Position numbers and translations under genes: made by a program. Shown piece by piece: positions 19,896 through 31,811 of a stretch of DNA of 64,000 nt. The notes below the pieces were generated by a model. That model was given only the letters and a program-made list of their open reading frames with translations. It was not told the origin of the DNA and searched no databases. This DNA comes from Mycobacteriales bacterium (GTDB lineage Bacteria; Actinomycetota; Actinomycetes; Mycobacteriales; CADCTP01), in NCBI GenBank assembly GCA_035995165.1, contig DASYKU010000066.1, positions 1,575-65,574 on the forward strand. The letters are read 5' to 3'. The first letter of the stretch is position 1, and the number at the start of each line of letters is the position of its first letter.

Positions 19896-22157
19896 GTGCC
19901 GCCGGTCCCGGTCTCGACGTACCGGGTCCAGGTGTCGCCAGACTTCGACCTGCACGCGACCGCCGGCCTGGCCGGCTACCTGGCCCGCCTCGGCGTCACC
20001 CATCTGTACGCGTCGCCGCTGCTGACCGCGACCACCGGCTCGATGCACGGCTACGACGTCACCGACCACCGCACCGCCGACCCGCAGCGCGGCGGCGAGG
20101 AGGGCCGGCTCGTGCTGGCCGAGGCGCTGCGCGAGCACGGGCTGTCGCTGGTGCTGGACCTGGTGCCCAACCACATGGGCGTCGCGGTGCCGGCCGAGAA
20201 CGCGGCCTGGTGGGACGTGCTCCGGCTCGGCCCGCAGTCCGCGTACGGCCGGTGGTTCGACATCGACTGGTCGCGGGGCCGGCTGCTGCTGCCGGTGCTC
20301 GGCGACGGGCCGGACGAGCTCGCGGCGCTGCGGGTCACCGCCGGCGAGCTGCGCTACTACGACAAGCGCTTCCCGCTCGCGCCCGGCACCGAGGCCCTGG
20401 ACGACCCGGTCAAGGTGCACGACCACCAGCACTACGAGCTGGTGTCCTGGCGCCGGGCCGCGACCGAGCAGAACTACCGGCGGTTCTTCGCGATCAGCGA
20501 CCTGGCCGGGCTGCGGGTGGAGGATCCGGCGGTCTTCGACGCCACCCACGCCGAGATCCTGCGCTGGGTCGCCTTCGGCGACGTCACGGGCCTGCGGATC
20601 GACCACCCGGACGGGCTAGCCGACCCGGCCGGCTACCTGGAGCGGCTCTGGCAGACCTCGAACGGGCTCTGGACCGTGGTCGAGAAGATCCTCGAGCCCG
20701 GCGAGGAGCTGCCGGACTGGCCCGTCGCCGGGACCAGCGGGTACGACCCGATGGCCGAGGTCGACGGCGTGCTGGTGGACCCGGCCGGCACGGCCGCGTT
20801 CACCGCGCTGGACACCCGGCTGACCGGAACCGCCACGTCCTGGCCGGAGCTGGTGCACGACTGCAAGCTGGACGTGGCCACCGGGATGCTGCGGGCCGAG
20901 GTCCGCCGGCTGGCCACGCTGGTCCCCGAGGTGCCGTACGCCCAGGAGGCGCTGGCCGAGCTGCTGGCCTGCTTCCCGGTCTACCGCTCGTACCTGCCGG
21001 TGGGGATCTCACAGCTGGTTGTCGCCGTCGAGGCCGCCCAGGCCCGGCGGCCCGATCTGGACCTCGGCGTCCTCGCGGCCCGGCTCGGGGTGGCCGAGGA
21101 CCCGCTGGCGATCCGGTTCCAGCAGACCTCGGGCGCGGTGATGGCCAAGGGGGTCGAGGACACCGCGTACTACCGGTGGACCCGGTTCCTGGCCCTGAAC
21201 GAGGTCGGCGGCGACCCGGACCGGTTCGGGCTGCCGCTGCCGGCCTTCCACGCGGCGCTGGCCCACCGGCAGGACCGGCACCCGGCCGGGATGACCGCGC
21301 TGTCCACCCACGACACCAAGCGTTCGGGCGACCTGCGGGCCCGGCTCGCGGTGCTCGCGGAGCTGCCGGAGGACTGGGCCGCGGCCGTGGACCGGTGGTC
21401 GTCGCTCGCGCCCACACCGGACGGCGCGCTCGGCCACCTGCTCTGGCAGTCGCTGGTCGGGGCCTGGCCGATCGAGGGCGACCGGCTGCACGGCTACCTG
21501 GAGAAGGCGATGCGGGAGGCGCGGACCCGCACCAGCTGGGACGACCCGGCGCCGGCGTTCGAGCAGGCGATGCACGCGGCCGCGGACGCCGCGCTGCGAC
21601 CGGGCGAGCTGCACGACGACGTGGCCGCGTTCGTGGATCGGATCGCCGGGCCGGGCTGGTCGAACGCGCTGACCGCGACGCTGCTGCAGCTGACCATGCC
21701 GGGGGTGCCGGACACGTACCAGGGCTGCGAGCTCTGGGACCTGTCGCTGGTCGACCCGGACAACCGGCGGCCGGTCGACTTCGAGCTGCGGTCGGCCCTG
21801 CTGGCCCGGCTCGACGACGGCTGGCGGCCGGCCTGGGACGACGCCGCCGGCGCGGCCAAGCTGCTCGTGGTCTCCCGGGCGCTGCGGCTCAAGCGGGACC
21901 GGCCGGGGCTGTTCACCGCCTACTCCCCCGTCACCGCGACCGGCCCGGCCGCCGAGCACGCGGTCGCCTACGACCGGGGCGGCGCGATCACCGTCGGCAC
22001 CCGGCTGCCGGTCGGCCTGGCCGCCGCCGGCGGCTGGCGGGACACCACGCTGACGCTGCCCGCGGTCACCGACCTGTTGACCGGCCGGTCGTACGAGGGC
22101 GCGGTCCGGCTGGCCGACCTGCTGGCCGACCACCCGGCCGCCCTGCTCGCGCCGTGA
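19896..22157 (+). CDS. treY: Malto-oligosyltrehalose synthase
   Basis: YRVQVSPDFDLHATAGLAGYLARLGVTHLYASPLLTA...GSMHGYDVTDH and GLRIDHPDGL. Starts 1 nt after the glgX stop. Confidence 0.93.
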   Translation: MPPVPVSTYRVQVSPDFDLHATAGLAGYLARLGVTHLYASPLLTATTGSMHGYDVTDHRTADPQRGGEEGRLVLAEALREHGLSLVLDLVPNHMGVAVPAENAAWWDVLRLGPQSAYGRWFDIDWSRGRLLLPVLGDGPDELAALRVTAGELRYYDKRFPLAPGTEALDDPVKVHDHQHYELVSWRRAATEQNYRRFFAISDLAGLRVEDPAVFDATHAEILRWVAFGDVTGLRIDHPDGLADPAGYLERLWQTSNGLWTVVEKILEPGEELPDWPVAGTSGYDPMAEVDGVLVDPAGTAAFTALDTRLTGTATSWPELVHDCKLDVATGMLRAEVRRLATLVPEVPYAQEALAELLACFPVYRSYLPVGISQLVVAVEAAQARRPDLDLGVLAARLGVAEDPLAIRFQQTSGAVMAKGVEDTAYYRWTRFLALNEVGGDPDRFGLPLPAFHAALAHRQDRHPAGMTALSTHDTKRSGDLRARLAVLAELPEDWAAAVDRWSSLAPTPDGALGHLLWQSLVGAWPIEGDRLHGYLEKAMREARTRTSWDDPAPAFEQAMHAAADAALRPGELHDDVAAFVDRIAGPGWSNALTATLLQLTMPGVPDTYQGCELWDLSLVDPDNRRPVDFELRSALLARLDDGWRPAWDDAAGAAKLLVVSRALRLKRDRPGLFTAYSPVTATGPAAEHAVAYDRGGAITVGTRLPVGLAAAGGWRDTTLTLPAVTDLLTGRSYEGAVRLADLLADHPAALLAP

Positions 22158-22852
22158 CCCGGCCGGCCAGCATCCCGGACGGGCTCGTGCTGGAGCTGTC
22201 CCGGGGCACGGTGCTGCCCGGGGCGTCGGCCGAGGCCGACCGGTGGATGGCGATGCTCAACGACCGCCAGGACGAGTGCGTCGCCACCCTGGACCGGGAG
22301 CGGATGGCGGTCGAGCTGGTGTTCCGGCTGCGCGAGGACGGCCGCGACCACCTCTACTGGGTGGCGATCAAGGGCGCCGGTGGGGCCGGCCCGGACCTGG
22401 CCGACCCGATCGACCGCGACCACGACGCCCAGGCCCGGCGGACCAAGGAGCCGGGCTGGGTCGAGGCCGAGCCGCAGCTGCTGTTGCTCCCGGACCCGGT
22501 TCGGCGGGCGGTGCTGGCCTGGGCGCTGCGGGACGGCGAGCGGGTGCCGCATCCGGTCACCGCGACCGTCCGGCTGGCCAGCGCCGGCCTGCACGTCATC
22601 GACCGCTGGACCGACGCCCTGGTGGACGCGCTGCTGGACGCCGGGGCGGGCGAGCCACAGGTCGGCGGCAGCCTCACCGGCGGCCGGATCGAGGTCCGGA
22701 TGACGGTCGACGCCGCGGACGTGGCCGGCGCGACGGCGGCGGCCGGCGACGTGCTGGCCGACGCGCTGGCCGCGGCCGAGACCCACGGCGTGCGGGTGCT
22801 GGGGATCTCGACCGAGGTCACGGCAGCTGACTCGGACAGCGGTACGGCCTGA
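22154..22852 (+). CDS. Hypothetical protein, N-terminal DUF6176-like region plus an extra Ala/Asp-rich C-terminal domain
   Basis: GTG 22154 overlaps the treY TGA (GTGA). N-terminal LELSRGTVLPGASAEADRWMAMLNDRQDECVATLDRERMAVELVFRLREDGRDHLYWVAIKG matches my recollection of the DUF6176 pattern. The family call is from memory only. Confidence 0.5.
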   Translation: MTRPASIPDGLVLELSRGTVLPGASAEADRWMAMLNDRQDECVATLDRERMAVELVFRLREDGRDHLYWVAIKGAGGAGPDLADPIDRDHDAQARRTKEPGWVEAEPQLLLLPDPVRRAVLAWALRDGERVPHPVTATVRLASAGLHVIDRWTDALVDALLDAGAGEPQVGGSLTGGRIEVRMTVDAADVAGATAAAGDVLADALAAAETHGVRVLGISTEVTAADSDSGTA

Positions 22853-23071
22853 CGGTGGACCGGGTCACCCCGCCGCGTCCACCGGGCGCGGCCGTGGTGA
22901 CCGCCCCGGGCTCGGCCACGGCGAGCGCGGCCGGCACGAGCCGTGGGCGCAGGGCGGGCGTGTCACTGTTCCGGCCCCGGTCCAGATGGTTAGCTGGCCG
23001 GGAACGCCGAGGCGGAACGGCACGCTGGTGCACATGTCGACGTGCGTAACGCGAACCCGGGCCGGAGGACG

Positions 23072-23524
23072 ATGTCTGCGACGAGGTCGGCCGCGTGGTG
23101 CGCGGCCGCGGTCGCGGCGCTGGTGTGGGCGCGGCGGCGAGTGCTGATCATCCGGGTCAACGGCGTCAGCATGGAGCCGACCTATCACGACGGCGACCGC
23201 GTCCTCGCCGTCCGGCCGCACCGGCGCAGCCGGTTGCGCGCCGGGGACGTCGTCGTGTTCGACCGGACCCAGCCGCGGGTCAAGCGGATCACCGCCCTCG
23301 CCGGCGCGGTCATCGACCGTGTGGAGATCCCCGCCGGCCACGTGTACGTGCGGGGTGACCGGGGCCGCTCCTACGACTCGGCGGTGCACGGCCCGATCGC
23401 CGAGAGTCTGGTCTTCGGCCGCGCGGTCCGCCGGTTCGCCCGGCCGAACGCGAATCCGGCGATGACGACACCGATGCGGCCGGGACCGGCGCCTGTCGCC
23501 GGCCCCGGCCACATCGGTGGCTGA
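23072..23524 (+). CDS. Short S26-family (signal peptidase I / SodX-like) serine protease
   Basis: About 150 aa (ATG 23072, or GTG 23042). Box B GVSMEPTY (Ser nucleophile), box D VKRITALAG (Lys base), box E GDRGRSYDS. One N-terminal hydrophobic segment. Confidence 0.8.
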   Translation: MSATRSAAWCAAAVAALVWARRRVLIIRVNGVSMEPTYHDGDRVLAVRPHRRSRLRAGDVVVFDRTQPRVKRITALAGAVIDRVEIPAGHVYVRGDRGRSYDSAVHGPIAESLVFGRAVRRFARPNANPAMTTPMRPGPAPVAGPGHIGG

Positions 23525-23527
23525 GCG

Positions 23528-23725
23528 TCAGCCGCACTCGGGGCGGGCGTTCAGGCAGCTACCCACCATTTGGTTGCCGCAGGTGTCCTCCGAGACCGCC
23601 TTGTGCTGGAAGGGCGCCGCGCAGCACCGGTAGAAGAGGAACCGGAACCTCCCACAGTTCGCGGAGGCGTCCGTCGTCGGCACGACCGCGGAGACGAGGC
23701 GGTCAGCCAGCTTGGTGATCGACAT
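23528..23725 (-). CDS. 65-aa six-cysteine peptide with a non-Sec N-terminal leader (candidate precursor peptide)
   Basis: MSITKLADRLVSAVVPTTDASANCGRFRFLFYRCCAAPFQHKAVSEDTCGNQMVGSCLNARPECG. Very strong SD (GGAGGGAGGTG, 7 nt before the ATG). High GC3. Lies 36 nt downstream of the ABC exporter on the same strand. Confidence 0.7.
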   Translation of the reverse strand: MSITKLADRLVSAVVPTTDASANCGRFRFLFYRCCAAPFQHKAVSEDTCGNQMVGSCLNARPECG

Positions 23726-23761
23726 GATGATTCACCTCCCTCCTTCGGATAGATGAGCGGG

Positions 23762-25618
23762 CTACCCGGCCTGAGCCGGCACCGCGGCGGCGCCCTCGAG
23801 GGCGTCGTCGTCGGGGTCGGCGTAGCCGGCGGCTTGAAGGGAGAACAGCTCGGCGTAGCGGCCGCCCGGACTGTTCATCAGCTCCCGGTGCGAGCCGGAC
23901 TCGGCGACGCGGCCACCGGCCAGCACGTAGATGCGCTGGGCGTGCCGCACGGTGGAGAGCCGGTGCGAGATGAGCACGCGGGCGCCGCCGATCATCGTGT
24001 CGGCGACCGCTCGGTGCAGGTCGTGCTCGGCCTTGGCGTCGAGCCCGGAACTCGGCTCGTCGAGGAGGAGCAGGTCGCAGTCCGCGCGCATCAACATGCG
24101 CGCCAGCGCGACGCGCTGCCACTGCCCGCCGGACAGGACGAGCGGGGTGTCGGCGTCGTCGACCTCTTCGGGGTCACGGAAGAAGAGCCGGCTGAGCATG
24201 GTGTCGAGGCCGCGGGGCAGGGCGGCCAGCTCGCGCTCGATGTGCGCGCGACGGATCGCGTCGAGGATCCGCGGGCGATCGTCGAGATGGTCCAGCCGCC
24301 CGACACCGACGTTCTGCGCCGCGGTGAGGTCGTAGGTGGCGAAGTCCTGGAAGACGGCGCCGATCCGGTCCCGCAGCGACACCGGGTCGAGCGCCGGCAG
24401 GTCGACGCCGTCCCAGGTGATGCGGCCGCGGGTCGGTTCGTAGAGCCGGCACAGCAGCTTGACCAGCGTGGACTTCCCTGCCCCGTTCAGCCCGACGAGC
24501 GCGACCGATCCGCCGGCCGGAATCGTGAGGCTGATGCCCTGCAGGATCCACGGCAGGTCCGGGCGATAGCGGAACCAGACGTCCTCCAGTCGGACCGCCT
24601 GTCGCAGCGGCGCGGCCGGTCGGGCCGGCGTCTCGACGACGGCAGCAGGCGCGCAGATCCCGTCGACGGCGCCGACGAGCTGCTGGCCGGACCGCAGCTG
24701 ACCCAGCGCCTGCACGGCACCGGTCAGCGCCGCGGTCAGCCCGCCGAAGGCGGTCACCACCGCGACCACCTGACCGGCGCTGGTCCCGCCGGCCGCGGCC
24801 CCGCGCGCGACGACGCCGACCGCGGCGACGACCATCGCGCCGACCACCCCGGCGGCGATCAGCTGCATCCGCAGCGTCGTGCGCTCCAGATCGCGCTCGT
24901 GCCGGTTCGCGAGGTCGAGATCGGCCAGCATCCGGTGCCGGAAGAAGTCGCCCAGCCCGAACAGTCGCAGCTCCTTGCCGGCCACCGGGTTGCAGATCAG
25001 GCTGCGGTACGCCTCGCGCCGCCGCCGGATGGGGGCGAGCCGGCCCAGCATGGAGACGTTCAGCCGGGCCAGCCGGAACTCGATCGCCATCACCGGGATC
25101 GCCCCGGCCAGCGCCAGGACCGCCAGCGGCCACGCCACGCCGAGCAGCACCACCGTGAGCGAACCGGCGGTCACCGCCGCGGTCGCGAGGCCGAGCGCGC
25201 CGCGCAGCAGCAGCTGTGGCGCCATGGCGGCAGCGTCCCCGGCCAGCGTGAGCCGATCCTGGTATCCGGGATCCTCCAGGCGGTCGACGCCGGTCTCCTG
25301 ACCGACCCGCTCATACAGCCGCCCGACGATCTGCGCGCCGGCGATCCGTCCGATCTGGCCCTGGAGGTACCGGTCCACCTCCGGTGCGCCCGCCCCGAGC
25401 AGGGTGGCCGCGACGATCGCCGCGGCATAGCCGCCGACGGCCAGGCCCGATCCGGACCCGACGATCGCGTCCACCAACCGCTGCAGGGCGACGGCCGAGA
25501 CCGCGGTGACGAGGCCGCCCACCAGGGCCAGCGCCGTCAGGGCGAGCAGCCGGCCGGGCGAGGCCCGGAGGATCAGCCGCGAGGCCGGGCTCGTGCGCGG
25601 CCGGTCACGCACGCGCAC
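23762..25618 (-). CDS. Fused TMD-NBD ABC exporter (no C39 peptidase domain)
   Basis: A six-helix ABC_membrane region is followed by Walker A GLNGAGKST, signature LSGGQWQRVALARM, Walker B LLLLDEPSSGLD and H-loop ISHRL. GTG candidates at 25618 and 25612 sit next to the upstream gene's TGA (25607..25605). The track start at 25711 is less likely. Confidence 0.88.
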   Translation of the reverse strand: MRVRDRPRTSPASRLILRASPGRLLALTALALVGGLVTAVSAVALQRLVDAIVGSGSGLAVGGYAAAIVAATLLGAGAPEVDRYLQGQIGRIAGAQIVGRLYERVGQETGVDRLEDPGYQDRLTLAGDAAAMAPQLLLRGALGLATAAVTAGSLTVVLLGVAWPLAVLALAGAIPVMAIEFRLARLNVSMLGRLAPIRRRREAYRSLICNPVAGKELRLFGLGDFFRHRMLADLDLANRHERDLERTTLRMQLIAAGVVGAMVVAAVGVVARGAAAGGTSAGQVVAVVTAFGGLTAALTGAVQALGQLRSGQQLVGAVDGICAPAAVVETPARPAAPLRQAVRLEDVWFRYRPDLPWILQGISLTIPAGGSVALVGLNGAGKSTLVKLLCRLYEPTRGRITWDGVDLPALDPVSLRDRIGAVFQDFATYDLTAAQNVGVGRLDHLDDRPRILDAIRRAHIERELAALPRGLDTMLSRLFFRDPEEVDDADTPLVLSGGQWQRVALARMLMRADCDLLLLDEPSSGLDAKAEHDLHRAVADTMIGGARVLISHRLSTVRHAQRIYVLAGGRVAESGSHRELMNSPGGRYAELFSLQAAGYADPDDDALEGAAAVPAQAG

Positions 25619-26153
25619 CCCACGGGACGCGGTCGACGGTGAAGGCGCTGCCCGCGAGCGCATCGTGGTCGAAGACCAGATAGCTCGGGAACGACGTGAT
25701 ACCGAACTCACCGGACAGCGGCCCGAGCGGGCGGTCCCGGACCACCGTGGCGATGCCGGCGAACGGCTCCTCGAGCGTCGGGTCGCCGTGCTCGGTCAGC
25801 ACGACGATCACCACCGCGGCCCCGTCGGCCGCCGCCCGCGCGGCGAGGTCACGAACCTTCGGCAGCTCCAGGTGGCAGCTGCCGCAGCCCTGGGAGAGGA
25901 ACGCCAGGAACACGCGGTGGTCGGCCAGCGTACGGAGCCGGAACGGGGCGCCGTCGGTGCCGGGGAGCTCGACGTCCGGCAACGGGCTGCCGGCCGGCAG
26001 GACCAGTGGTTCGGCGGCGGCCAGCCCGAACGGGTCTGCGGGTCGGTGCGGCGCGACCGAGGTCCGCAGCCGGCGCACGACACCGAGCAACAGCAGCAGG
26101 TTGATCAGGGTGACCACGGTCAGCACGGCGACGGCTGCGGCGAGCACGCTCAT
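25605..26153 (-). CDS. Membrane-anchored TlpA/redoxin-like thiol:disulfide oxidoreductase (CGSC active site)
   Basis: ATG 26153 gives an N-terminal TM anchor, MSVLAAAVAVLTVVTLINLLLLLGVV. A thioredoxin fold follows, with FLAFLSQGCGSCHLELP and a cis-Pro region (ITSFPSYLVF). An ATGA overlap joins it to the upstream gene. Confidence 0.82.
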   Translation of the reverse strand: MSVLAAAVAVLTVVTLINLLLLLGVVRRLRTSVAPHRPADPFGLAAAEPLVLPAGSPLPDVELPGTDGAPFRLRTLADHRVFLAFLSQGCGSCHLELPKVRDLAARAAADGAAVVIVVLTEHGDPTLEEPFAGIATVVRDRPLGPLSGEFGITSFPSYLVFDHDALAGSAFTVDRVPWGARA

Positions 26154-26674
26154 CGGGCCCGCTCCGCGGTGCCGGGCGTCCGGACCAGCGCGGTCAGGTC
26201 GTCGAGATGCACCACGAGCGCGACGAGCACGAACGCGACCGTCGCCGCGACGAGCAGCGGGCCGATGCGCACTGCCGGTCCGGACGTCGCCGCCGCCAGC
26301 AGGGCCACACCGGCCAGACCGCCATTGCGCACCGCGTGGGGCCGGCCCAAGGGTGCCCCCGACACACCGAAACACCGGCAGGCGGCGGGCGCCGGGCCGC
26401 GCGCGGCCCGCAGCGCGACGCCGGCCAGACCGAGGAGGGCCAGCGTGGCGAGCACCAGGCCGGCCACCCGCGTCGCCGGCCAGAGGCAGAGCACGACCAG
26501 AGCGGTCTCACCGGCGATCACCGCGTTGGCCACGGGCCGGGCGACCACCGGCCGGACGAGCCGCAGCGCCACCAGCGACCCGGCGAACTCGTCGCGATGC
26601 CGCGCCTTCGCCACCGCGGCGACGGCGAACGTTCCGGCCGTCACCAGCAGCGCGACCAGGTTCACACTCCCCAC
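26150..26674 (-). CDS. MauE/DoxX-family redox-associated membrane protein
   Basis: 174 aa, four TM helices. It carries the CxCFG motif (AACRCFGVSG) that I associate with MauE-type proteins. SD GGAGG lies upstream of the GTG at 26674. Confidence 0.72.
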   Translation of the reverse strand: MGSVNLVALLVTAGTFAVAAVAKARHRDEFAGSLVALRLVRPVVARPVANAVIAGETALVVLCLWPATRVAGLVLATLALLGLAGVALRAARGPAPAACRCFGVSGAPLGRPHAVRNGGLAGVALLAAATSGPAVRIGPLLVAATVAFVLVALVVHLDDLTALVRTPGTAERAR

Positions 26675-26714
26675 TGCGCCTCCTTCGCCGACTCCCTCGA
26701 GACCCTGGCGAACG

Positions 26715-26743
26715 GCGCTAAGCCGGCGCTAAGTCCGCGCTAA
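26715..26743 (-). promoter_or_regulatory. Three TTAGCGC heptamers (plus strand GCGCTAA) at exact 11-bp phasing upstream of the mauE-like operon
   Basis: Plus-strand GCGCTAA at 26715, 26726 and 26737. These lie 41-69 nt upstream of the GTG at 26674 and downstream of the permease stop (26772). Confidence 0.45.
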
Positions 26744-26771
26744 CCGCGCGGCATCAGCGGGTCGACGGCCG

Positions 26772-28157
26772 TCAGGCGCCGGCTCCGATCGTGAGGTCGC
26801 GGCTGCGGCCGGTGAGCAGGAAGTACAGGAAGACGCCGGCGCCGACGGCCAGCCAGACGATGCCGCCGACCTTCGCGTTCGTGTCGGCGTGGACGAGCAC
26901 GTAGCCGATGATCACGAACCCGATCACCGGGACGACGAGGTGCAGCAGCCAGTTCCGGCTGTGCTTGCGGATCACGTAGTGGTTGACCACCGCGATGTGC
27001 AGCAGGCAGAAGCCGAACAGCGCGCCGAAGTTCACCAGCGAGCTGATCAGGTCGAGCTTGCCGACGAAGAACAGCACCAGCACCAGCGTCAGCCCGGAGA
27101 CGACGAGCAGCGCGTTCTGCGGGATCTGGCGGCGGTTCACCACCCGCAGGAAGGCCGGCAGCTGCCCGTCCCGGGACATGCTGAACAGCAGCCGGGAGGT
27201 CGCCGCCTGGGCCGCGATCGCGTTGGCGATGCCGACCGCGAGCGCGTTGACGGCCAGGAACGCCTTGGCCCAGCCGGCCGTGGACGCGCTGCCGACCAGG
27301 TCGAAGAACGCGTTGCCGACGTGCGCGTCGTCGAAGCTGCTGGTCCCGGCGGCCAGCGCCGCGGCCAGCCAGGTCTCGCCGACGAACAGCACCGCGACGA
27401 TGAGCAGCGCGCTGACCATCGCCGTACCCGCGGCCTTGCGGCCGCCGGTGGCCTCCTCCGACAGCGTCGAGATGCCGTCGAAGCCGAGGAAGCTCAGCAC
27501 CGCGATGCTCAGCGCGCTCGCGATCAGCGCCGGGGTGACCTTGTCGGAGTCCCAGAGCTGCTCGAGGCCGAAGTGGGCGCCGGCGATCGTGCCGCGGGCC
27601 AGCGCGGTGATCGCGATGATCACGAAGATCACCAGGAAGACCAGCTCGATCGCGAGGAAGACCCGGTTGAACCGGGCCAGCGACCTGATCCCGATCAGGT
27701 TGACGATCGTGTTGACCACGACGAACGCGATCGCCCACATCCAGCGCTCGGTGCCCGGGAAGATGCCGACCATCGACTCCGCCCCGAAGACGTAGAGCAG
27801 GGTCGGGACGAGCAGGTAGTCCAGCAGGATCGACCAGCCGGCGAAGAAGCCGAGCACCTTGTGCAGCCCGCGGCCCACGTACGCGTAGACCGAGCCGGCC
27901 AGCGGGAACTCCTTGGCCATCTGCGCGTACGCCAGCGCGGTGAAGATCATCGCGACCAGGCCGACCACGTAGACCAGCGGGACCATGCCCTCGGCGGCGT
28001 TGTAGACGGTGCCGAAGATCGCCCAGGGCGCGATCGGCACCATGAAGATCAGGCCGTAGATGATCAGATCGACGGTGGAGACGGAGCGGCGCAGCTCCTG
28101 CTGGTAGCCGAACTCACGCAGGCCGTCCTCGGGCGTGGCGGCGGACTCGGTGGGCAT
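26772..28157 (-). CDS. APC-family amino acid/polyamine permease
   Basis: 461 aa, 12 TM. The N-terminus (...FGYQQELRRSVSTVDLIIYGLIFMVPIAPWAIFG) is typical of PuuP/amino acid permeases. Confidence 0.88.
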   Translation of the reverse strand: MPTESAATPEDGLREFGYQQELRRSVSTVDLIIYGLIFMVPIAPWAIFGTVYNAAEGMVPLVYVVGLVAMIFTALAYAQMAKEFPLAGSVYAYVGRGLHKVLGFFAGWSILLDYLLVPTLLYVFGAESMVGIFPGTERWMWAIAFVVVNTIVNLIGIRSLARFNRVFLAIELVFLVIFVIIAITALARGTIAGAHFGLEQLWDSDKVTPALIASALSIAVLSFLGFDGISTLSEEATGGRKAAGTAMVSALLIVAVLFVGETWLAAALAAGTSSFDDAHVGNAFFDLVGSASTAGWAKAFLAVNALAVGIANAIAAQAATSRLLFSMSRDGQLPAFLRVVNRRQIPQNALLVVSGLTLVLVLFFVGKLDLISSLVNFGALFGFCLLHIAVVNHYVIRKHSRNWLLHLVVPVIGFVIIGYVLVHADTNAKVGGIVWLAVGAGVFLYFLLTGRSRDLTIGAGA

Positions 28158-28218
28158 ACGGCTAGTTACTCACCCGATGGGGCCGTTACGCCAGATGTCC
28201 GGATCACCGATCCGCCGA

Positions 28219-29112
28219 TCAGCCCCGGCCGACTGCCTCGACCGTCTCGATCCAGTGCGCCGCGAAGGCCGGGCCGTCGACGGCCGTGACGACCTTGACC
28301 GGCAGCCCGGCCGGGTCCCGGACCAGCGCGCCGTCCGCACCCAGCCGGACCCGGGTCACCTCGGCGGTCACGCCGTCCCAGCCGAGGGCGACGGCGCAGG
28401 CGGCCGGGTCGTACTGGAAGTTGAGCAGGTCGGCCGGCAGCGCGGGGTGGGCGGCGGCCAGGTCGGCCATGTCGTGGCGGGCGCCGTGCGCGGCGACCTG
28501 GTGGGCCAGCAGCGTGCCGACGGGCCCGGCGGACCGCAGCCGGGGCAGGTCGGCCTCCCGGATCCAGGTCGCCAGCGTGGCCGGCAGCGTGACCAGCGTC
28601 GGCCCGGTCCGCAGCAGCAGCTCGAACGCGCGCCGGTCCCACTGGTTGTTGAAGTCCATGTCCGGGCCCCAGGGCGGCAGCCCGTCCGCCGGCGGATCGA
28701 GCCAGCCCGCCATGAGCACGGGGTTGCGCAGCCGGCCGGGCCGGGTCAGCTCGTACAGGGCCAGGGTGGTGCAGGGGCCGATGCCGATCACGGTGGCCCC
28801 GGCGGCGATGCTGCGGTCGAGCAGGTCCAGCGCGGCGCCCGGCTTCCCCGGCCGCCGGCGGTGCAGCGGCCAGTCGCCGTACTCGGGGTCGGCCCGCCGG
28901 CCCGTCGTCATCGACAGCGCCGCGCCCGCCGCGACCGGGACGTGCCGGCCGGCCAGGGACAGCAGGTGCCGGACGTACGCGGCCCGCATCCCGTCCCGGT
29001 CGGCGACCGTGGTCACCCCGGTCAGCTCCACGTCCGCCCGCCCCAGCAGGTACGCCAGGGCGCAGGCGTCGTCGGTGTCGCCGCCGAAGTCGGTGTCGAG
29101 GTGGACGCGCAT
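28219..29112 (-). CDS. Nucleoside hydrolase (IUNH family)
   Basis: ATG 29112. The N-terminal DTDFGGDTDDACALAYLL is the DxDxxxDD Ca2+/ribose-binding fingerprint. Joined to the upstream gene by TGATG. Confidence 0.82.
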   Translation of the reverse strand: MRVHLDTDFGGDTDDACALAYLLGRADVELTGVTTVADRDGMRAAYVRHLLSLAGRHVPVAAGAALSMTTGRRADPEYGDWPLHRRRPGKPGAALDLLDRSIAAGATVIGIGPCTTLALYELTRPGRLRNPVLMAGWLDPPADGLPPWGPDMDFNNQWDRRAFELLLRTGPTLVTLPATLATWIREADLPRLRSAGPVGTLLAHQVAAHGARHDMADLAAAHPALPADLLNFQYDPAACAVALGWDGVTAEVTRVRLGADGALVRDPAGLPVKVVTAVDGPAFAAHWIETVEAVGRG

Positions 29113-29945
29113 CAGTTCGGCGGCGCCAGCGCCTTGGTCAGCGCCGGGACGTCCAGCTCCGGCTGCGGGTACTGCGGGTCCAGGTCCCGGACGGTCTCCA
29201 GCAGCAGCCGGCCGACGGCCCAGTTCCGGTACCACTTGCGGTCCGCGGGCACCGCGTACCAGGGCGCCTGCGGGGTGGAGCAGCGCTCCAGCGCGATCCG
29301 GTACGCCTGCTGGTAGTCGGTCCAGCGGGCCCGCTCGGCCAGGTCGCCCGGGTTGAACTTCCAGTTCTTCGTCGGGTCGGTGAGCCGGGACAGCAGCCGC
29401 TCCCGCTGCTCGTCGTAGGAGACGTTGAGGAAGCACTTGACCAGCGCGTACCCGTTCTCGACCAGGCCGGCCTCGAACTTGTTGATCTCGTCGTACCGCT
29501 TCTCGACGATCTCCGGGGCGGCCAGCGCGTGCACCCGGCCGACCAGCACGTCCTCGTAGTGGGACCGGTCGAAGATGCCGATCATCCCGGGGTCGGGCAG
29601 CGCCCGGCGGACCCGCCAGAGGAAGTGGTGCCGCAGCTCGTCCGGGGTCGGTTTCTTGAACGAGTGGATGTGCACGCCCTGCGGGTTGACCAGGCCGATG
29701 ACGTGCTCGATCACGCCGCCCTTGCCCGAGGTGTCCATGCCCTGCAGGACGAGCAGGATCCGTCGGGCGGACGCCGCGTACAGCGCCTCCTGCAGGCCGG
29801 CCAGCCGGTCGCCCTCCGCCGCCATCCCGGCCGCGGTCTTCTTCTTGCCGCCGGGTGCGTGCGGGGTGGCCCGCGCGTCCAGCTCGTCCAGGTCCACCGG
29901 AGCGCCCGGAGTCACCCGCAGCAGATCCCGAAGCGACGTGGCCAC
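29112..29945 (-). CDS. Polyphosphate kinase 2 (PPK2) family protein
   Basis: GTG 29945. LLVLQGMDTSGKGGVIEHV is the PPK2 Walker A-like motif. FLWRV, IFDRSHYEDVLV and KFNPGDL blocks also match. Confidence 0.88.
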   Translation of the reverse strand: MATSLRDLLRVTPGAPVDLDELDARATPHAPGGKKKTAAGMAAEGDRLAGLQEALYAASARRILLVLQGMDTSGKGGVIEHVIGLVNPQGVHIHSFKKPTPDELRHHFLWRVRRALPDPGMIGIFDRSHYEDVLVGRVHALAAPEIVEKRYDEINKFEAGLVENGYALVKCFLNVSYDEQRERLLSRLTDPTKNWKFNPGDLAERARWTDYQQAYRIALERCSTPQAPWYAVPADRKWYRNWAVGRLLLETVRDLDPQYPQPELDVPALTKALAPPN

Positions 29946-30050
29946 GTGTACCCCCCGCTGTCCGACGATGCGGCGATCACCCGGGACACTAGCGGTGCGA
30001 CCGGGTAGTGCTGGTCCGGTAGGTCCATTCGGACCAGCGGAAGGGACACG

Positions 30051-31811
30051 ATGACGACGTTCGAGGTCTGGGCGCCGAACCACGACCAGGTACGGCTGCG
30101 CACCCTGGGCAACGACCACGAGATGGCCGCGGCCGGGGACGGCCTGTGGCGGGTCACCGTGCCCGAGGCCGGACCCGGCGACGACTACGGGTTCCTGCTC
30201 GGCGACGACGACACCCCGCTGCCGGACCCGCGCTCGCGCTGGCAGCCGGAGGGCGTGCACGGCCTGAGCCGGCTGCACGACCCCCAGGCCTACGAGTGGG
30301 ACGACGGCGAGTGGACGGGCCGGCAGCTGGCCGGCGCGGTCGTCTACGAACTGCACGTCGGCACGTTCACCCCCGAGGGCACCTTCGCCGCGGCCACCGA
30401 GAAGCTCGACCACCTGGCCGAGCTGGGCGTGGACCTGGTCGAGGTGCTGCCGGTCAACGCGGTCAACGGCACCCACAACTGGGGCTACGACGGCGTCGGG
30501 TGGTACGCGGTGCACGACCCGTACGGCGGGCCGGACGCGTTCAAGGCGTTCGTCGACGCCTGCCACCGGCGCGGGATCGGCGTGGTGCTGGACGTGGTCT
30601 ACAACCACCTCGGGCCCTCCGGTGCGTACCTGCCGCGGTTCGCGCCGTTCTTCAAGCCGGGCAAGTCGACCTGGGGCGACCTGGTCAACCTGGACGGGCC
30701 CGGCTCGGAGCCGGTGCGGCGCTACATCCTGGACAACGCGCAGATGTGGCTGCACGAGTTCCACGTCGACGGGCTCCGGCTGGACGCCGTGCACGCGCTG
30801 GTCGACCTGGGCGCGATCCACATCCTGGAGGAGATGGCGGTCGAGGTGGACGCGCTGTCCGCACACCTGCGCCGGCCGCTCACGCTCATCGCCGAGTCCG
30901 ACCTCAACGACCCCCGGCTGATCCGGTCCCGGGACGCCGGCGGGTACGGGCTGACCGCGCAGTGGGACGACGACGTGCACCACGCGCTGCACGCGCTGCT
31001 CACCGGCGAGCAGCAGGGCTACTACTCCGACTTCGGCTCGCTCGGGACGCTGGCCAAGGCGTTCACCGGCGCGTTCGTGCACGACGGGTCGTACTCGTCG
31101 TTCCGGGGGCGGCTGCACGGGCGGCGGGTGAACCGGGACGACACGCCGGCGTACCGGTTCGTGGCCTTCCTGCAGGACCACGACCAGGTCGGCAACCGCG
31201 CGCTGGGCGACCGGCTGTCCGGCGAGCCCGGGTCGCTGTCCCCGCAGCTGCTCAAGGTCGGCGCCGCGCTGCTGCTGACCTCGCCGTTCACGCCGATGCT
31301 CTGGATGGGCGAGGAGTGGGGCGCGACCACGCCCTGGCAGTTCTTCACCTCGCACCCGGAGCCGGAGCTGGCCGCCGCGGTCGCCCACGGCCGCCGGGAG
31401 GAGTTCGCCGCGCACGGCTGGGACACCGAGGACGTGCCCGATCCGCAGGACCCGGCCACCTTCCAGCACTCCAAGCTGGACTGGGCCGAGCTGACCGACG
31501 AGAAGCATGCCGACGTGCTCGACTTCTACCGGCGGCTGACCCAGCTGCGCCGGGCCCGGCCGGAGCTGTCCGACCCGCGGCTGGACCGGGTCGACGTCAC
31601 GTTCGACGAGGACGCGCGCTGGCTGGTCGTGCACCGGGGCGGGCTGCGGGTCGCGGTGAACCTCGCCGCCGAGCGGCAGGAGGTGCCGCTGGACGGCACG
31701 CCGATCAGCGTGCTGCTCTCCTCCGTGCCCGGGTTCGTCTACCGGGACGGGGCGGTCGAGCTGGAACCGGGCTCGACGGCCGTGGTCGAGCTGGCCGTCC
31801 GTACGGGCTGA
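30051..31811 (+). CDS. treZ: Malto-oligosyltrehalose trehalohydrolase
   Basis: MTTFEVWAPNHDQVRLR..., with GH13 blocks NWGYDGV, DVVYNHLGPSG, GLRLDAVHAL, AESDLND and FLQDHDQVGNR. Confidence 0.95.
   Translation: MTTFEVWAPNHDQVRLRTLGNDHEMAAAGDGLWRVTVPEAGPGDDYGFLLGDDDTPLPDPRSRWQPEGVHGLSRLHDPQAYEWDDGEWTGRQLAGAVVYELHVGTFTPEGTFAAATEKLDHLAELGVDLVEVLPVNAVNGTHNWGYDGVGWYAVHDPYGGPDAFKAFVDACHRRGIGVVLDVVYNHLGPSGAYLPRFAPFFKPGKSTWGDLVNLDGPGSEPVRRYILDNAQMWLHEFHVDGLRLDAVHALVDLGAIHILEEMAVEVDALSAHLRRPLTLIAESDLNDPRLIRSRDAGGYGLTAQWDDDVHHALHALLTGEQQGYYSDFGSLGTLAKAFTGAFVHDGSYSSFRGRLHGRRVNRDDTPAYRFVAFLQDHDQVGNRALGDRLSGEPGSLSPQLLKVGAALLLTSPFTPMLWMGEEWGATTPWQFFTSHPEPELAAAVAHGRREEFAAHGWDTEDVPDPQDPATFQHSKLDWAELTDEKHADVLDFYRRLTQLRRARPELSDPRLDRVDVTFDEDARWLVVHRGGLRVAVNLAAERQEVPLDGTPISVLLSSVPGFVYRDGAVELEPGSTAVVELAVRTG

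What the first reader, a model, noticed from the sequence alone, without database searches (positions are those of the whole stretch)
23528..23725. The 65-aa peptide: non-Sec leader ending in ASA, then a cationic 43-aa core with spacing C-x9-CC-x13-C-x7-C-x6-C
The sequence is MSITKLADRLVSAVVPTTDASA / NCGRFRFLFYRCCAAPFQHKAVSEDTCGNQMVGSCLNARPECG.

The first 22 residues lack the basic n-region and long h-region of a Sec or Tat signal, yet they end in an Ala-x-Ala motif. That motif is the preferred site for S26 proteases. There is no double-glycine motif.

The putative core has six Cys, an aromatic and basic N-terminal stretch (GRFRFLFYR), and a net positive charge by my count (5 Arg/Lys against 3 Asp/Glu). 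Codon third positions are mostly G/C and the SD is GGAGGGAGGTG, so this looks like a real gene rather than noise. The cysteine spacing does not match the ICK, alpha-defensin or beta-defensin patterns I know.
Basis: seen in the sequence. Interest (0 to 1): 0.8.

Follow-up and report, generated by a model that had tools for sequence, protein, structure and literature searches.

The report
Cysteine-rich peptide with dedicated maturation cassette
A real 65-residue gene in an uncultured soil actinobacterium encodes a conserved leader joined to a fast-evolving, positively charged six-cysteine peptide, and it sits with its own exporter, leader-cutting protease and disulfide-forming enzymes, so it is most likely a secreted disulfide-stapled peptide of a class predicted in 2020 but never studied experimentally.

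Summary
Sixteen homologue clusters exist, all from metagenomes or MAGs (Mycobacteriales, Pseudonocardiaceae). They share a strongly conserved 22-residue leader, MSIxKLxxRLxxxxVPTxxAxA, and a variable, always cationic core with a 6-Cys or 8-Cys framework.

The gene is the last one in an operon of MauE (a DsbB-like oxidase with a CXC motif), a membrane-anchored CxxC redoxin (MauD-like) and an ABC exporter that has no peptidase domain. It converges on a small S26 signal-peptidase gene. This cassette recurs in at least five different genomic contexts.

The leader is homologous (hhalign 94%) to the leaders of the MauE-associated Cys-rich precursors that decRiPPter (2020) flagged as candidate new RiPP families in Streptomyces. 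A cultured Actinoallomurus carries the same cassette. No Pfam, NCBIfam or PDB entry matches the peptide by sequence, and its moderate-confidence structure models match no PDB fold.

The most likely mechanism is leader-dependent ABC export, S26 cleavage after Ala-x-Ala, and formation of three disulfides outside the cytoplasm by redoxin and MauE. The product would be a 43-residue peptide (4779.07 Da). Its function is unproven and is probably antimicrobial or signalling.

It is a new subfamily of a predicted, uncharacterised class, and of moderate interest.

The parts
26150..26674 (-). MauE-family membrane protein (174 aa), the predicted DsbB-like quinone-linked disulfide oxidase. Its CRC motif lies in the loop between TM3 and TM4.
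   Evidence: PF07291 hit at 8e-20. Four or five hydrophobic helices, and CRCFG, the Lys at the end of TM1 and the Glu in TM2 are all conserved in homologues. The role of the CXC motif and DsbB replacement were shown for other MauE proteins in bioRxiv 10.64898/2026.03.05.709764.
25605..26153 (-). Membrane-anchored thioredoxin-fold redoxin (182 aa) with a CGSC active site, the MauD/TlpA-like partner of MauE. Its start overlaps the MauE stop (ATGA).
   Evidence: PF08534 Redoxin at 1.9e-8 and AhpC-TSA at 3.6e-8. An N-terminal TM segment and a CxxC motif are conserved in 7 homologues.
23762..25612 (-). ABC exporter half-transporter (about 616 aa, GTG start, 8-nt overlap with the redoxin gene). It has a six-helix TMD plus an NBD and no C39 peptidase domain.
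   Evidence: PF00005 at 1.9e-28. The best NCBIfam hits are MsbA-like, NHLP-bacteriocin and HlyB-type exporters, all far below their cut-offs. TM scan. The start was placed by alignment to the L002 homologue.
23733..23743 (-). Shine-Dalgarno sequence GGAGGGAGGTG, 7 nt upstream of the peptide ATG.
   Evidence: Read directly from the sequence. Similar AGGAGGTGA sequences precede the homologous genes.
23660..23725 (-). Leader peptide, residues 1-22: MSITKLADRLVSAVVPTTDASA.
   Evidence: M1, S2, R9, P16, A20 and A22 are invariant in 18 sequences. Mean pairwise identity is 0.63 for the leader against 0.39 for the core. hhalign gives 94% probability, E 1.4e-7, to the leaders of the Streptomyces and Actinoallomurus MauE-associated precursors.
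23531..23659 (-). Core peptide, residues 23-65 (43 aa, 6 Cys, net +2). The predicted mature product has three disulfides and a monoisotopic mass of 4779.07 Da.
   Evidence: AF2 models give a three-stranded beta-sheet with pLDDT about 68-75.
23469..23519 (-). A perfect 23-bp GC-rich hairpin that starts 8 nt after the peptide stop codon. It is a probable transcript terminator or 3' stabiliser, and it lies inside the 3' end of the convergent S26 ORF.
   Evidence: MFE -64.1 kcal/mol, z -6.65. Conserved in 5 relatives with 3 compensatory pairs. Analogous hairpins follow the last peptide gene in L005, L007 and L009. It is retained in L015, where the S26 gene is gone.
23072..23524 (+). Small S26 (type I signal peptidase-like) protease, 150 aa from the ATG at 23072 (the ORF is open from a GTG at 23042). 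It has an N-terminal hydrophobic anchor and converges on the peptide gene with a 3-nt gap.
   Evidence: PF10502 at 1.6e-15. TIGR02227 signal peptidase I scores 57.5 bits, above its cut-off of 47. The SM-x-PT Ser box, the VKR Lys box and the GD..S.DS box are conserved in 9 homologues.

Best explanation
The ORF encodes the precursor of a secreted, disulfide-stapled peptide that is made by a self-contained five-gene cassette.

Shown here:
- The gene is real and conserved.
- Its 22-residue leader is much better conserved than its core.
- It is co-inherited with MauE, a CxxC redoxin and an ABC exporter without a peptidase domain, and in nearly all loci with an S26 peptidase.

Inferred:
1. The precursor is translated from the last gene of the mauE-redoxin-ABC-peptide operon. 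That operon ends in a strong 3' hairpin.
2. The amphipathic leader, which is not a Sec or Tat signal, targets the reduced precursor to the ABC exporter.
3. Outside the membrane, the anchored S26 peptidase cuts after Ala20-Ser21-Ala22 (Pro at -7, Ala at -3 and -1). This releases a 43-residue core that begins Asn-Cys-Gly.
4. The membrane-anchored redoxin oxidises the six cysteines to three disulfides. MauE re-oxidises the redoxin through its CXC loop and passes the electrons to quinone, in a DsbA/DsbB-like relay.
5. The compact cationic, aromatic-rich product acts outside the cell. Its most likely role is a narrow-spectrum antimicrobial (bacteriocin-like). A signalling role is the main alternative.

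My confidence is about 0.75 for the biosynthetic logic and about 0.4 for an antimicrobial function.
For: - ORF and sequence.
- Sixteen homologue clusters share the leader MSIxKLxxRLxxxxVPTxxAxA.
- The MauE-redoxin-ABC-peptide order recurs in window, L001, L005, L007, L009 and L015 (redoxin-ABC-peptide on the shorter contigs L002 and L003), with a convergent S26 in all of these except L015. Their outer flanks differ.
- Domain assignments.
- The start/stop overlaps of mauE-redoxin and redoxin-ABC suggest translational coupling.
- The S26 Ser/Lys boxes, the redoxin CxxC and the MauE CRCFG motif are all conserved.
- P16, A20 and A22 are invariant, which fits the -1/-3 rule for S26 cleavage.
- The leader is homologous to those of the MauE-associated Cys-rich precursors of Streptomyces (decRiPPter S2 table) and of Actinoallomurus L013.
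- MauE was shown experimentally to replace DsbB, using a periplasmic CXC loop.
- The core evolves fast (dN/dS 0.4-1.0) while the Cys framework and the positive charge are kept.
- One locus has tandem duplicated precursor genes (L005).
- SARP/BTAD regulators, typical of actinomycete secondary-metabolite clusters, lie next to the cassette in L002, L007, L009, L014 and L015.
Against: - There is no expression or product data, and every sequence comes from uncultured organisms.
- The order and the cellular side of cleavage, oxidation and export are inferred. The S26 and redoxin anchors have nearly uncharged N-termini followed by RRR or RRLR. By the positive-inside rule this would put their catalytic domains in the cytoplasm, which conflicts with the published periplasmic CXC loop of MauE.
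- The S26 gene is missing next to the otherwise complete cassette in L015, so it is not strictly required there.
- Two homologues have an odd number of Cys (P0002, P0015).
- No immunity gene is evident.
- Structure models reach only moderate confidence (pLDDT 63-68) and match no known antimicrobial fold.
- The ABC exporter could in principle export a thiol reductant, as CydDC does, rather than the peptide.
Confidence: 0.72

Rival explanations
1. The peptide is an ordinary small Sec-secreted protein. Residues 1-22 are a short Sec signal peptide cut by signal peptidase. The neighbouring ABC, MauE and redoxin genes serve general envelope redox homeostasis, for example CydDC-like thiol export plus a DsbB/DsbA-like system, and are not a dedicated pathway.
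For: The leader ends in a canonical SPase I site with Pro at -7. The S26 protein passes the TIGR02227 signal peptidase I cut-off. In L015 the cassette lacks its own S26, so a housekeeping SPase I may suffice. The ABC protein also hits the CydC and CydD models. The MauE preprint's abstract proposes MauE as a generalist oxidase.
Against: The uncharged stretch is only about 7-9 residues (LVSAVVPTT). It carries Lys in several homologues (LLAKAVP, IVGKIIP), and an invariant Arg9 with a mostly acidic or polar residue at position 8 sits in the middle of the leader. The leader sequence is conserved far better than Sec signals usually are. It is shared with precursors whose cores are unrelated. The genes travel together through different genomic contexts. 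The CydC/CydD scores are far below their cut-offs.
Confidence: 0.12
2. The biosynthesis is the same, but the product is a signalling or pheromone-type peptide that is sensed by the producer population or by neighbours, rather than an antimicrobial.
For: No immunity gene is visible in the cassette. Large SARP/TPR regulators are adjacent in five related loci. Fast core diversification with a conserved leader is also typical of pherotype systems.
Against: No receptor kinase or other sensor gene is conserved next to the cassette. A uniformly cationic, aromatic-rich, disulfide-rich core (net +1 to +9) is more typical of membrane-active antimicrobials. The window locus has no adjacent regulator.
Confidence: 0.25
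3. The mature peptide is a metal-binding peptide, either a secreted metallophore or metallothionein-like molecule, or a NiSOD-like N-terminal Cys hook. Its maturation by an S26 protease would parallel the SodX-SodN pair.
For: The peptide is Cys-rich. The S26 protein gives weak hits to the NiSOD maturation protease model TIGR02754 (30.8 bits in the window, 40.9 bits in L013). Cleavage would expose x-Cys-Gly at the new N-terminus in all members, and x-C-G-R-C in the 8-Cys groups.
Against: The TIGR02754 scores are below the cut-off of 63. There is no His1 and no HCxxPC hook, and the second Cys of such a hook is absent in the 6-Cys group. A co-inherited DsbB/DsbA-like oxidation pair argues for disulfides rather than free thiolates. 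Even Cys counts (6 or 8) fit fully paired disulfides.
Confidence: 0.04
4. The peptide is the small subunit or a cofactor-bearing subunit of an enzyme. This would be analogous to the MADH beta subunit (which depends on MauE and MauD) or the QHNDH gamma subunit (leader removed by a dedicated protease, exported by an ABC transporter).
For: MauE and MauD are classically required for maturation of the six-disulfide MADH small subunit. QhpC has a 28-residue leader that is removed by QhpE before export through the ABC transporter QhpF.
Against: No dehydrogenase large subunit, radical-SAM enzyme, flavoprotein or cytochrome gene is found in the cassette, either in the window or in any related locus. 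Several family members have no Trp in the core, including the window peptide. The hypervariable core is not what an enzyme subunit would show.
Confidence: 0.03
5. The ORF is a spurious reading frame in GC-rich intergenic DNA between the ABC and S26 genes.
For: High-GC DNA yields many long ORFs. dN/dS within the closest clade is high, 0.5-1.0. The antisense frame is also open.
Against: Start, stop, length, SD and Cys framework are conserved across 16 clusters down to 37% identity. GC3 is 0.94 against GC1 0.55 and GC2 0.54. dN/dS is 0.11 in the L009/L014 pair. The leader profile matches independent Streptomyces precursors.
Confidence: 0.02

Closest known systems
MauE-associated Cys-rich candidate RiPP families of Streptomyces (decRiPPter; Kloosterman et al. 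2020, PLoS Biol, PMC7794033)
   Same: These are small precursors encoded next to mauE (one family also has mauD). Their leaders are of the same type...L..RL....VP.v.A.A, followed directly by a Cys-rich core. The leader profile matches with hhalign probability 94%, E 1.4e-7. A cultured Actinoallomurus carries a MauE-redoxin-ABC-S26 cassette with such a precursor.
   Different: The core sequences are unrelated. The window peptide has 6 Cys, whereas those families were described as having at least 8. The window family is found only in uncultured Mycobacteriales and Pseudonocardiaceae MAGs and metagenomes. Its precursor gene follows the ABC gene and converges on S26. None of these families, including this one, has been characterised experimentally as far as the searched literature shows.
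Methylamine dehydrogenase maturation (MauA small subunit with MauE and MauD) and MauE as a DsbB substitute
   Same: A MauE protein with a CXC loop, paired with a thioredoxin-fold CxxC partner, serves a small disulfide-dense polypeptide.
   Different: There are no other mau genes, no dehydrogenase and no TTQ-forming machinery. The substrate here is a 43-residue peptide with its own leader, its own exporter and its own protease.
Class II / glycocin-type bacteriocin clusters with dedicated thiol-disulfide oxidoreductases (e.g. sublancin sunA-sunT-bdbA-sunS-bdbB; from my own knowledge, not tested here)
   Same: The logic is the same: a leader-bearing ribosomal peptide, a dedicated ABC exporter and cluster-encoded disulfide-forming proteins give a disulfide-stabilised secreted peptide.
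   Different: Those systems use a double-glycine leader that is cut by the C39 domain of the exporter, and DsbA/DsbB-type Bdb proteins. Here there is no GG motif and no C39 domain. A separate S26 peptidase and a MauE/redoxin pair take those roles.
QHNDH gamma-subunit pathway (QhpC leader, QhpE protease, QhpF ABC exporter; PMC7876137)
   Same: A small Cys-rich polypeptide with a non-Sec leader is processed by a dedicated serine protease and exported by an ABC transporter.
   Different: QhpC is cross-linked by a radical-SAM enzyme in the cytoplasm, cleaved by a subtilisin-like protease and becomes an enzyme subunit. None of those genes is present here.
NiSOD precursor SodN and its S26 maturation protease SodX (TIGR02754)
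   Same: A dedicated small S26 protease removes a short N-terminal leader that ends in small residues, exposing a Cys at position 2 of the mature chain. The model gives weak hits.
   Different: The scores are below the family cut-off, there is no His-Cys-x-x-Pro-Cys hook and no SOD domain. The protease here has a membrane anchor, and the cassette includes an exporter and oxidases.

Membership tests
MauE-associated Cys-rich precursor class (decRiPPter candidate families) | Small precursor gene clustered with a mauE homologue (with or without mauD) | tested here: met
   MauE (PF07291, 8e-20) and a redoxin lie 2-3 kb upstream in the same operon. The same arrangement is found in 7 related loci.
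MauE-associated Cys-rich precursor class (decRiPPter candidate families) | Precursor with at least 8 cysteines (as described in the paper) | tested here: not met
   The window peptide has 6 Cys. The sister subfamilies P0017-P0019 and P0024-P0029 have 8.
MauE-associated Cys-rich precursor class (decRiPPter candidate families) | Homologous leader peptide | tested here: met
   hhalign of A4 against A5 gives probability 94%, E 1.4e-7 over 25 leader columns.
Type I signal peptidase, S26 (TIGR02227 / PF10502), for the neighbouring protease | Score above the curated cut-off and a Ser-Lys catalytic dyad | tested here: met
   57.5 bits against a cut-off of 47. The SMxPT and VKR boxes are conserved in 9 homologues.
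MauE disulfide oxidase (PF07291; Gonzalez et al. 2026 preprint) | CXC motif in the loop between TM3 and TM4, plus conserved Lys and Glu in the helices | tested here: met
   CRCFG follows TM3. The Lys at the end of TM1 and the Glu in TM2 are conserved in 5 homologues.
Sec (type I) signal peptide | Positively charged n-region and an uninterrupted hydrophobic h-region of about 10 or more residues | tested here: inconclusive
   The hydrophobic stretch is only 7-9 residues. It carries Lys in some homologues and is preceded by an invariant Arg9 with a mostly acidic or polar residue at position 8. No SignalP-type predictor was available.
Double-glycine leader / PCAT-exported bacteriocins | GG (or GA/GS) cleavage motif and a C39 peptidase domain on the ABC exporter | tested here: not met
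   There is no GG motif in the leader. The ABC protein hits only ABC_tran and has no Peptidase_C39 domain.
Defensins, ICK knottins and other known disulfide-rich folds | Matching Cys framework or fold | tested here: not met
   Foldseek against the PDB gave no match with E below 0.8 for either model. The PDB profile search gave nothing below E 1. There is no Pfam hit. The models have only moderate confidence, so a fold match cannot be strictly excluded.
NiSOD / SodX system | An N-terminal His-Cys-x-x-Pro-Cys Ni-hook after cleavage, and a protease above the TIGR02754 cut-off | tested here: not met
   The mature N-terminus would be NCGRFR. TIGR02754 scores 30.8 bits against a cut-off of 63.25.
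HYR_4C domain (PF23237) | Profile-level similarity across the domain | tested here: not met
   Only the C-x13-C-G-N hairpin motif is shared. hhalign gives probability 30% over 19 columns. hmmscan finds no hit.
RiPP in the strict sense | Enzymatic post-translational modification of the core beyond leader removal and disulfides | not testable with these tools
   No tailoring enzyme lies in the window cassette. A methyltransferase is present in L005 and near the L013 cassette. The chemistry needs mass spectrometry.

The most novel reading that the evidence does not exclude
These cassettes may define a new, experimentally untouched class of secreted bacterial peptides. In this class a conserved non-Sec leader would direct export through a plain ABC half-transporter. 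A dedicated paralogue of type I signal peptidase would remove the leader outside the Sec pathway. A private MauE/MauD-type relay would install three or four disulfides to give a new cationic beta-sheet mini-protein fold with antibiotic activity. This would be a Sec-independent use of signal peptidase and the first natural-product substrate for the newly recognised MauE oxidative folding pathway.
Probability: 0.45. Interest if true: 0.7.

Novelty: new member of a known kind. Interest (0 to 1): 0.5.

Why it matters
If the model holds, this cassette is a compact, portable five-gene system for making and secreting small disulfide-rich peptides in actinobacteria.

- It would give a concrete physiological substrate for the MauE/MauD oxidative-folding pathway, which was shown only in 2026 to replace DsbB.
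- It would show a type I signal-peptidase paralogue being used as a leader protease outside Sec secretion.
- It would open a family of hypervariable cationic mini-proteins from uncultured soil Mycobacteriales and Pseudonocardiaceae as candidate antibiotics or signals.
- The class was flagged by genome mining in 2020 but has no curated model in Pfam or NCBIfam, and I found no experimental study of it. Current annotation pipelines therefore label these genes "hypothetical protein".

Tried and rejected
- Pfam and NCBIfam scans of the peptide, 15 homologues, the Actinoallomurus peptide and the three decRiPPter precursors gave no family. The only hits were a 0.026 chance hit to PTN_MK_N and an E 0.3 chance hit to the NCBIfam EntF model.
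- A PDB sequence-profile search gave nothing below E 1.
- Two AF2 models, the full precursor and the core alone, reached pLDDT 63 and 68. Foldseek against the PDB returned only generic beta-sheet fragments at E of 0.8 or more. I therefore rejected a defensin, knottin or toxin fold assignment.
I replaced it with a degenerate leader DNA pattern. That pattern found only 2 MAGs among 185,579 species genomes, 1 JGI metagenome contig and 0 viral contigs.
- tblastn of MauE against plasmids gave no match.
- The HYR_4C similarity raised by the exhaustive search (P0016) is limited to one motif and was rejected as homology.
- The positive-inside rule suggested cytoplasmic catalytic domains for S26 and the redoxin. 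I did not adopt this, because the MauE CXC loop has been shown experimentally to act on the periplasmic side. The conflict is recorded as unresolved.
- No compositional sign of recent horizontal transfer was found. GC is 0.71-0.76 in the cassette and in its flanks.
- The consensus promoter/terminator scan, Rfam and tRNA scans found nothing.
- Literature searches for an experimentally characterised member found none.
Full report
**Observation**

The minus-strand ORF 23528-23725 starts with ATG and encodes MSITKLADRLVSAVVPTTDASANCGRFRFLFYRCCAAPFQHKAVSEDTCGNQMVGSCLNARPECG, exactly as reported. GGAGGGAGGTG lies 7 nt upstream of the ATG. The Cys spacing is C-x9-CC-x13-C-x7-C-x6-C and the core is net +2. 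GC at codon positions 1/2/3 is 0.55/0.54/0.94. NCBI already calls the gene, as "hypothetical protein VGP36_11120", in a MAG labelled Mycobacteriales bacterium.

**It is a real, conserved gene**

A word-indexed search found one 75%-identical homologue. An exhaustive HMM search of 1.8 billion cluster representatives found a close 65-residue homologue (P0015) and three more distant relatives of 64-67 residues. A profile search then brought the family to 16 clusters. All come from metagenomes or MAGs. Where a taxon is given, it is Mycobacteriales or Pseudonocardiaceae.

A degenerate DNA pattern for the leader matched every fetched member. It matched only two MAGs among 185,579 species-representative genomes, one JGI metagenome contig and no viral contig. 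The window holds a single copy. The family is therefore rare and so far uncultured.

The alignment shows the following.
- M1, S2, R9, P16, A20, A22, C24, C35, C49 and C64 are invariant.
- I3, V15, G25, D47 and G50 are nearly invariant in both alignments; C34 is nearly invariant in the 16-sequence alignment.
- Mean pairwise identity is 0.63 in the leader and 0.39 in the core.
- Between the 6-Cys and 8-Cys groups, identity is 0.58 in the leader against 0.25 in the core, or 0.18 once Cys columns are left out.

The window belongs to a 6-Cys group. Three sister groups share an 8-Cys framework, C-x2-C-x7-CC-x12/13-C-x3-C-x3/4-C-x5/6-C. Their two extra cysteines appear together and so are probably paired with each other (inference). 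Every core is net cationic, from +1 to +9.

Two members have an odd Cys count: P0002 has C34R and P0015 has C57S.

Codon-level analysis:
- The L009/L014 pair gives dN/dS 0.11 at dS 0.31, which is clear purifying selection.
- In the window's own clade the core evolves fast, with dN/dS 0.4-1.0. The neighbouring enzyme genes give 0.24-0.6.
- Fast core evolution behind a fixed leader and a fixed Cys scaffold is the pattern expected of a bacteriocin- or pheromone-type precursor.

**Context**

The peptide gene is the last in a co-directional set.
- MauE, 26150-26674 (PF07291, 8e-20).
- A membrane-anchored CxxC redoxin, 25605-26153 (PF08534). Its start overlaps the MauE stop as ATGA.
- An ABC half-transporter, 23762-25612, which overlaps the redoxin gene by 8 nt. 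It has six predicted helices plus an ATPase domain and no C39 peptidase domain.
- The peptide gene, after a 36-nt spacer that carries the SD.

A 150-residue S26 peptidase gene (23072-23524, plus strand) converges on it with a 3-nt gap. It scores 57.5 bits on TIGR02227 (signal peptidase I), above the cut-off of 47. Its Ser and Lys boxes are conserved.

The outer flanks are unrelated to the cassette: glgX and treY with a DUF6176 gene on one side, and an amino-acid permease, a nucleoside hydrolase, PPK2 and treZ on the other. GC content does not differ from the flanks.

**The cassette travels as a unit**

MauE-redoxin-ABC-peptide with a convergent S26 recurs in:
- L001, which has the same treY/treZ neighbourhood;
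- L002, L003 and L004;
- L005/L006, with two tandem precursor genes and a methyltransferase;
- L007/L008, with an extra 116-residue ORF;
- L009/L010 and L014.

The outer flanks differ between these loci. SARP/BTAD regulators lie next to the cassette in L002, L007, L009, L014 and L015.

L015 carries a 72%-identical peptide that is found on 20 contigs. Here the S26 gene is missing and a SARP regulator follows the peptide gene, yet the hairpin that normally sits in the S26 3' end is kept. The dedicated S26 is therefore usual but not obligatory.

**Link to a published prediction**

A distant S26 homologue in a cultured Actinoallomurus (L013) sits in a MauE-redoxin-ABC-S26 operon. Divergently upstream lies an uncalled 65-residue ORF, MDMYSKLERLGAGILGLFVPKVEASASAASCGW..., with 8 Cys.

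The decRiPPter paper (PMC7794033) reported three candidate RiPP families in Streptomyces that contain mauE, one of them also with mauD. Their precursors have at least 8 Cys. Its S2 table lists leaders such as ...LSSRLLGLFVPKVEAAASA and ...LLERLVPRVDASA.

A profile of the window family aligns to these four precursors over the leader with hhalign probability 94%, E 1.4e-7. The window peptide is therefore a new subfamily of that predicted class. None of these peptides matches any Pfam or NCBIfam model. I found no experimental characterisation in the searchable literature.

**Mechanism**

MauE was recently shown to replace DsbB in E. coli. Its active site is a CXC motif in the periplasmic loop between TM3 and TM4, it is probably coupled to quinone, and MauD is its thioredoxin-fold partner (bioRxiv 10.64898/2026.03.05.709764). 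The window MauE has CRC in that same loop and conserves the Lys in TM1 and the Glu in TM2. The adjacent redoxin keeps its CxxC motif.

The leader has Pro at -7 and Ala at -3 and -1, all invariant. That is the S26 recognition pattern. The hydrophobic stretch is too short for a Sec h-region and is interrupted by Lys in some members. There is no twin-arginine motif and no GG motif.

The most economical model has three steps:
1. The ABC exporter moves the reduced precursor out, guided by the leader.
2. The anchored S26 cuts after Ala22.
3. The redoxin/MauE relay forms three disulfides.

The expected product is 43 residues, 4779.07 Da, pI about 8.3.

One caveat remains. The S26 and redoxin anchors have almost uncharged N-termini followed by RRR or RRLR. 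By the positive-inside rule this would put their catalytic domains inside the cell. I could not run a topology predictor, so the side and the order of the steps remain inferred.

**Fold**

AF2 predicts a three-stranded antiparallel sheet for the core, at residues 28-34, 40-46 and 52-59, with pLDDT about 68-75. The leader is modelled as a low-confidence helix. Foldseek against the PDB and a PDB profile search gave no significant match. The exhaustive search also hit a giant HYR_4C repeat protein through the motif C-x3-F-x-[RH]-K-x5-D-x-C-G-N. Profile comparison supports only this motif (probability 30%), so I do not claim homology.

**Function**

The following features fit a secreted antimicrobial best:
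- a cationic, aromatic-rich, disulfide-rich core;
- fast diversification of the core;
- precursor duplication in one locus;
- a dedicated exporter;
- SARP regulators in related loci.

A signalling peptide is the main alternative. Metal-binding, enzyme-subunit and plain Sec-protein readings have little support (see the rival explanations).

**Verdict**

The finding is a new, rare subfamily of a class that was predicted computationally in 2020 and remains uncharacterised. Its interest is moderate, mainly as a tractable entry point to that class and to the MauE oxidative-folding pathway.

Noticed in passing
window 23469-23519 (minus-strand RNA); also L001 about 8207-8257, L005 8470-8515, L007 8204-8238, L015 about 9206-9255: A perfect 23-bp GC hairpin (-64 kcal/mol, z -6.65) starts 8 nt after the peptide stop codon, inside the last 50 nt of the convergent S26 ORF. 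It is conserved with 3 compensatory pairs in 5 relatives. Different but equally strong hairpins follow the last precursor gene in the other subfamilies. It persists in L015, where S26 is lost, so it belongs to the peptide transcript. It has no U-tract.
   Followed up: yes
window 23660-23725 compared with 23531-23659, and the same regions in L001, L002, L004, L005, L009 and L014: Synonymous divergence in the leader-coding 66 nt (dS 0.05-0.12) is 3-5 times lower than in the core (0.30-0.59) and in the neighbouring S26, ABC and redoxin genes (0.21-0.43). This held in every pair tested. It could reflect nucleotide-level constraint (mRNA structure or translation initiation) or gene conversion of the leader. 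The counts are small.
   Followed up: partly
L015 9001-12184: An otherwise complete MauE-redoxin-ABC-peptide cassette (peptide 72% identical, seen on 20 contigs) has no S26 gene. A 962-residue SARP/TPR regulator follows the peptide gene instead, and only a 34-residue remnant of the S26 3' end remains.
   Followed up: yes
L005 8001-8204 and 8258-8461; L005 8517-9248: Two tandem precursor genes have near-identical leaders (dN 0.02) and diverged cores (dN 0.38). A SAM-dependent methyltransferase lies between the precursors and S26. A methyltransferase also lies upstream of the Actinoallomurus cassette (L013 3291-4100). Some members may carry an extra modification.
   Followed up: partly
P0016 (2896 aa; metagenomic protein, not in the window): This giant protein has 25 HYR_4C repeats of 83 residues. 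Each contains GCDSTFTRKWVATDACGN, the same C-x13-C-G-N spacing and several of the same residues as peptide positions 35-51. Profile comparison supports only this motif.
   Followed up: yes
window 23072-23170 (S26 N-terminus) and 26070-26153 (redoxin N-terminus): Both membrane anchors have short, nearly uncharged N-termini, with RRR or RRLR directly after the hydrophobic segment. The MauE CXC loop is also Arg-rich. This conflicts with the expected N-in/C-out topology under the positive-inside rule.
   Followed up: partly
window 19896-31811: The cassette lies in a block of about 8 kb between treY and treZ, which are usually adjacent in actinobacteria. The block also holds a DUF6176 gene, an amino-acid permease, a nucleoside hydrolase and PPK2. 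L001 has the cassette in the same treY...treZ interval, so the placement is inherited within this clade. GC content is not atypical.
   Followed up: partly
L001 5059-6126: MauE is called as a 355-residue protein with no separate redoxin gene. This may be a MauE-redoxin fusion, which is reported for 8.2% of MauE entries. It may instead be an assembly frameshift, because the ABC gene on the same contig is split in two.
   Followed up: no
L013 4584-4781 (minus strand), Actinoallomurus sp. NPDC052274: A 65-residue, 8-Cys precursor ORF with the family-type leader lies divergently upstream of mauE. It is missing from the genes called on that contig in this collection. Members of this class are likely under-annotated in cultured actinomycetes.
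   Followed up: partly
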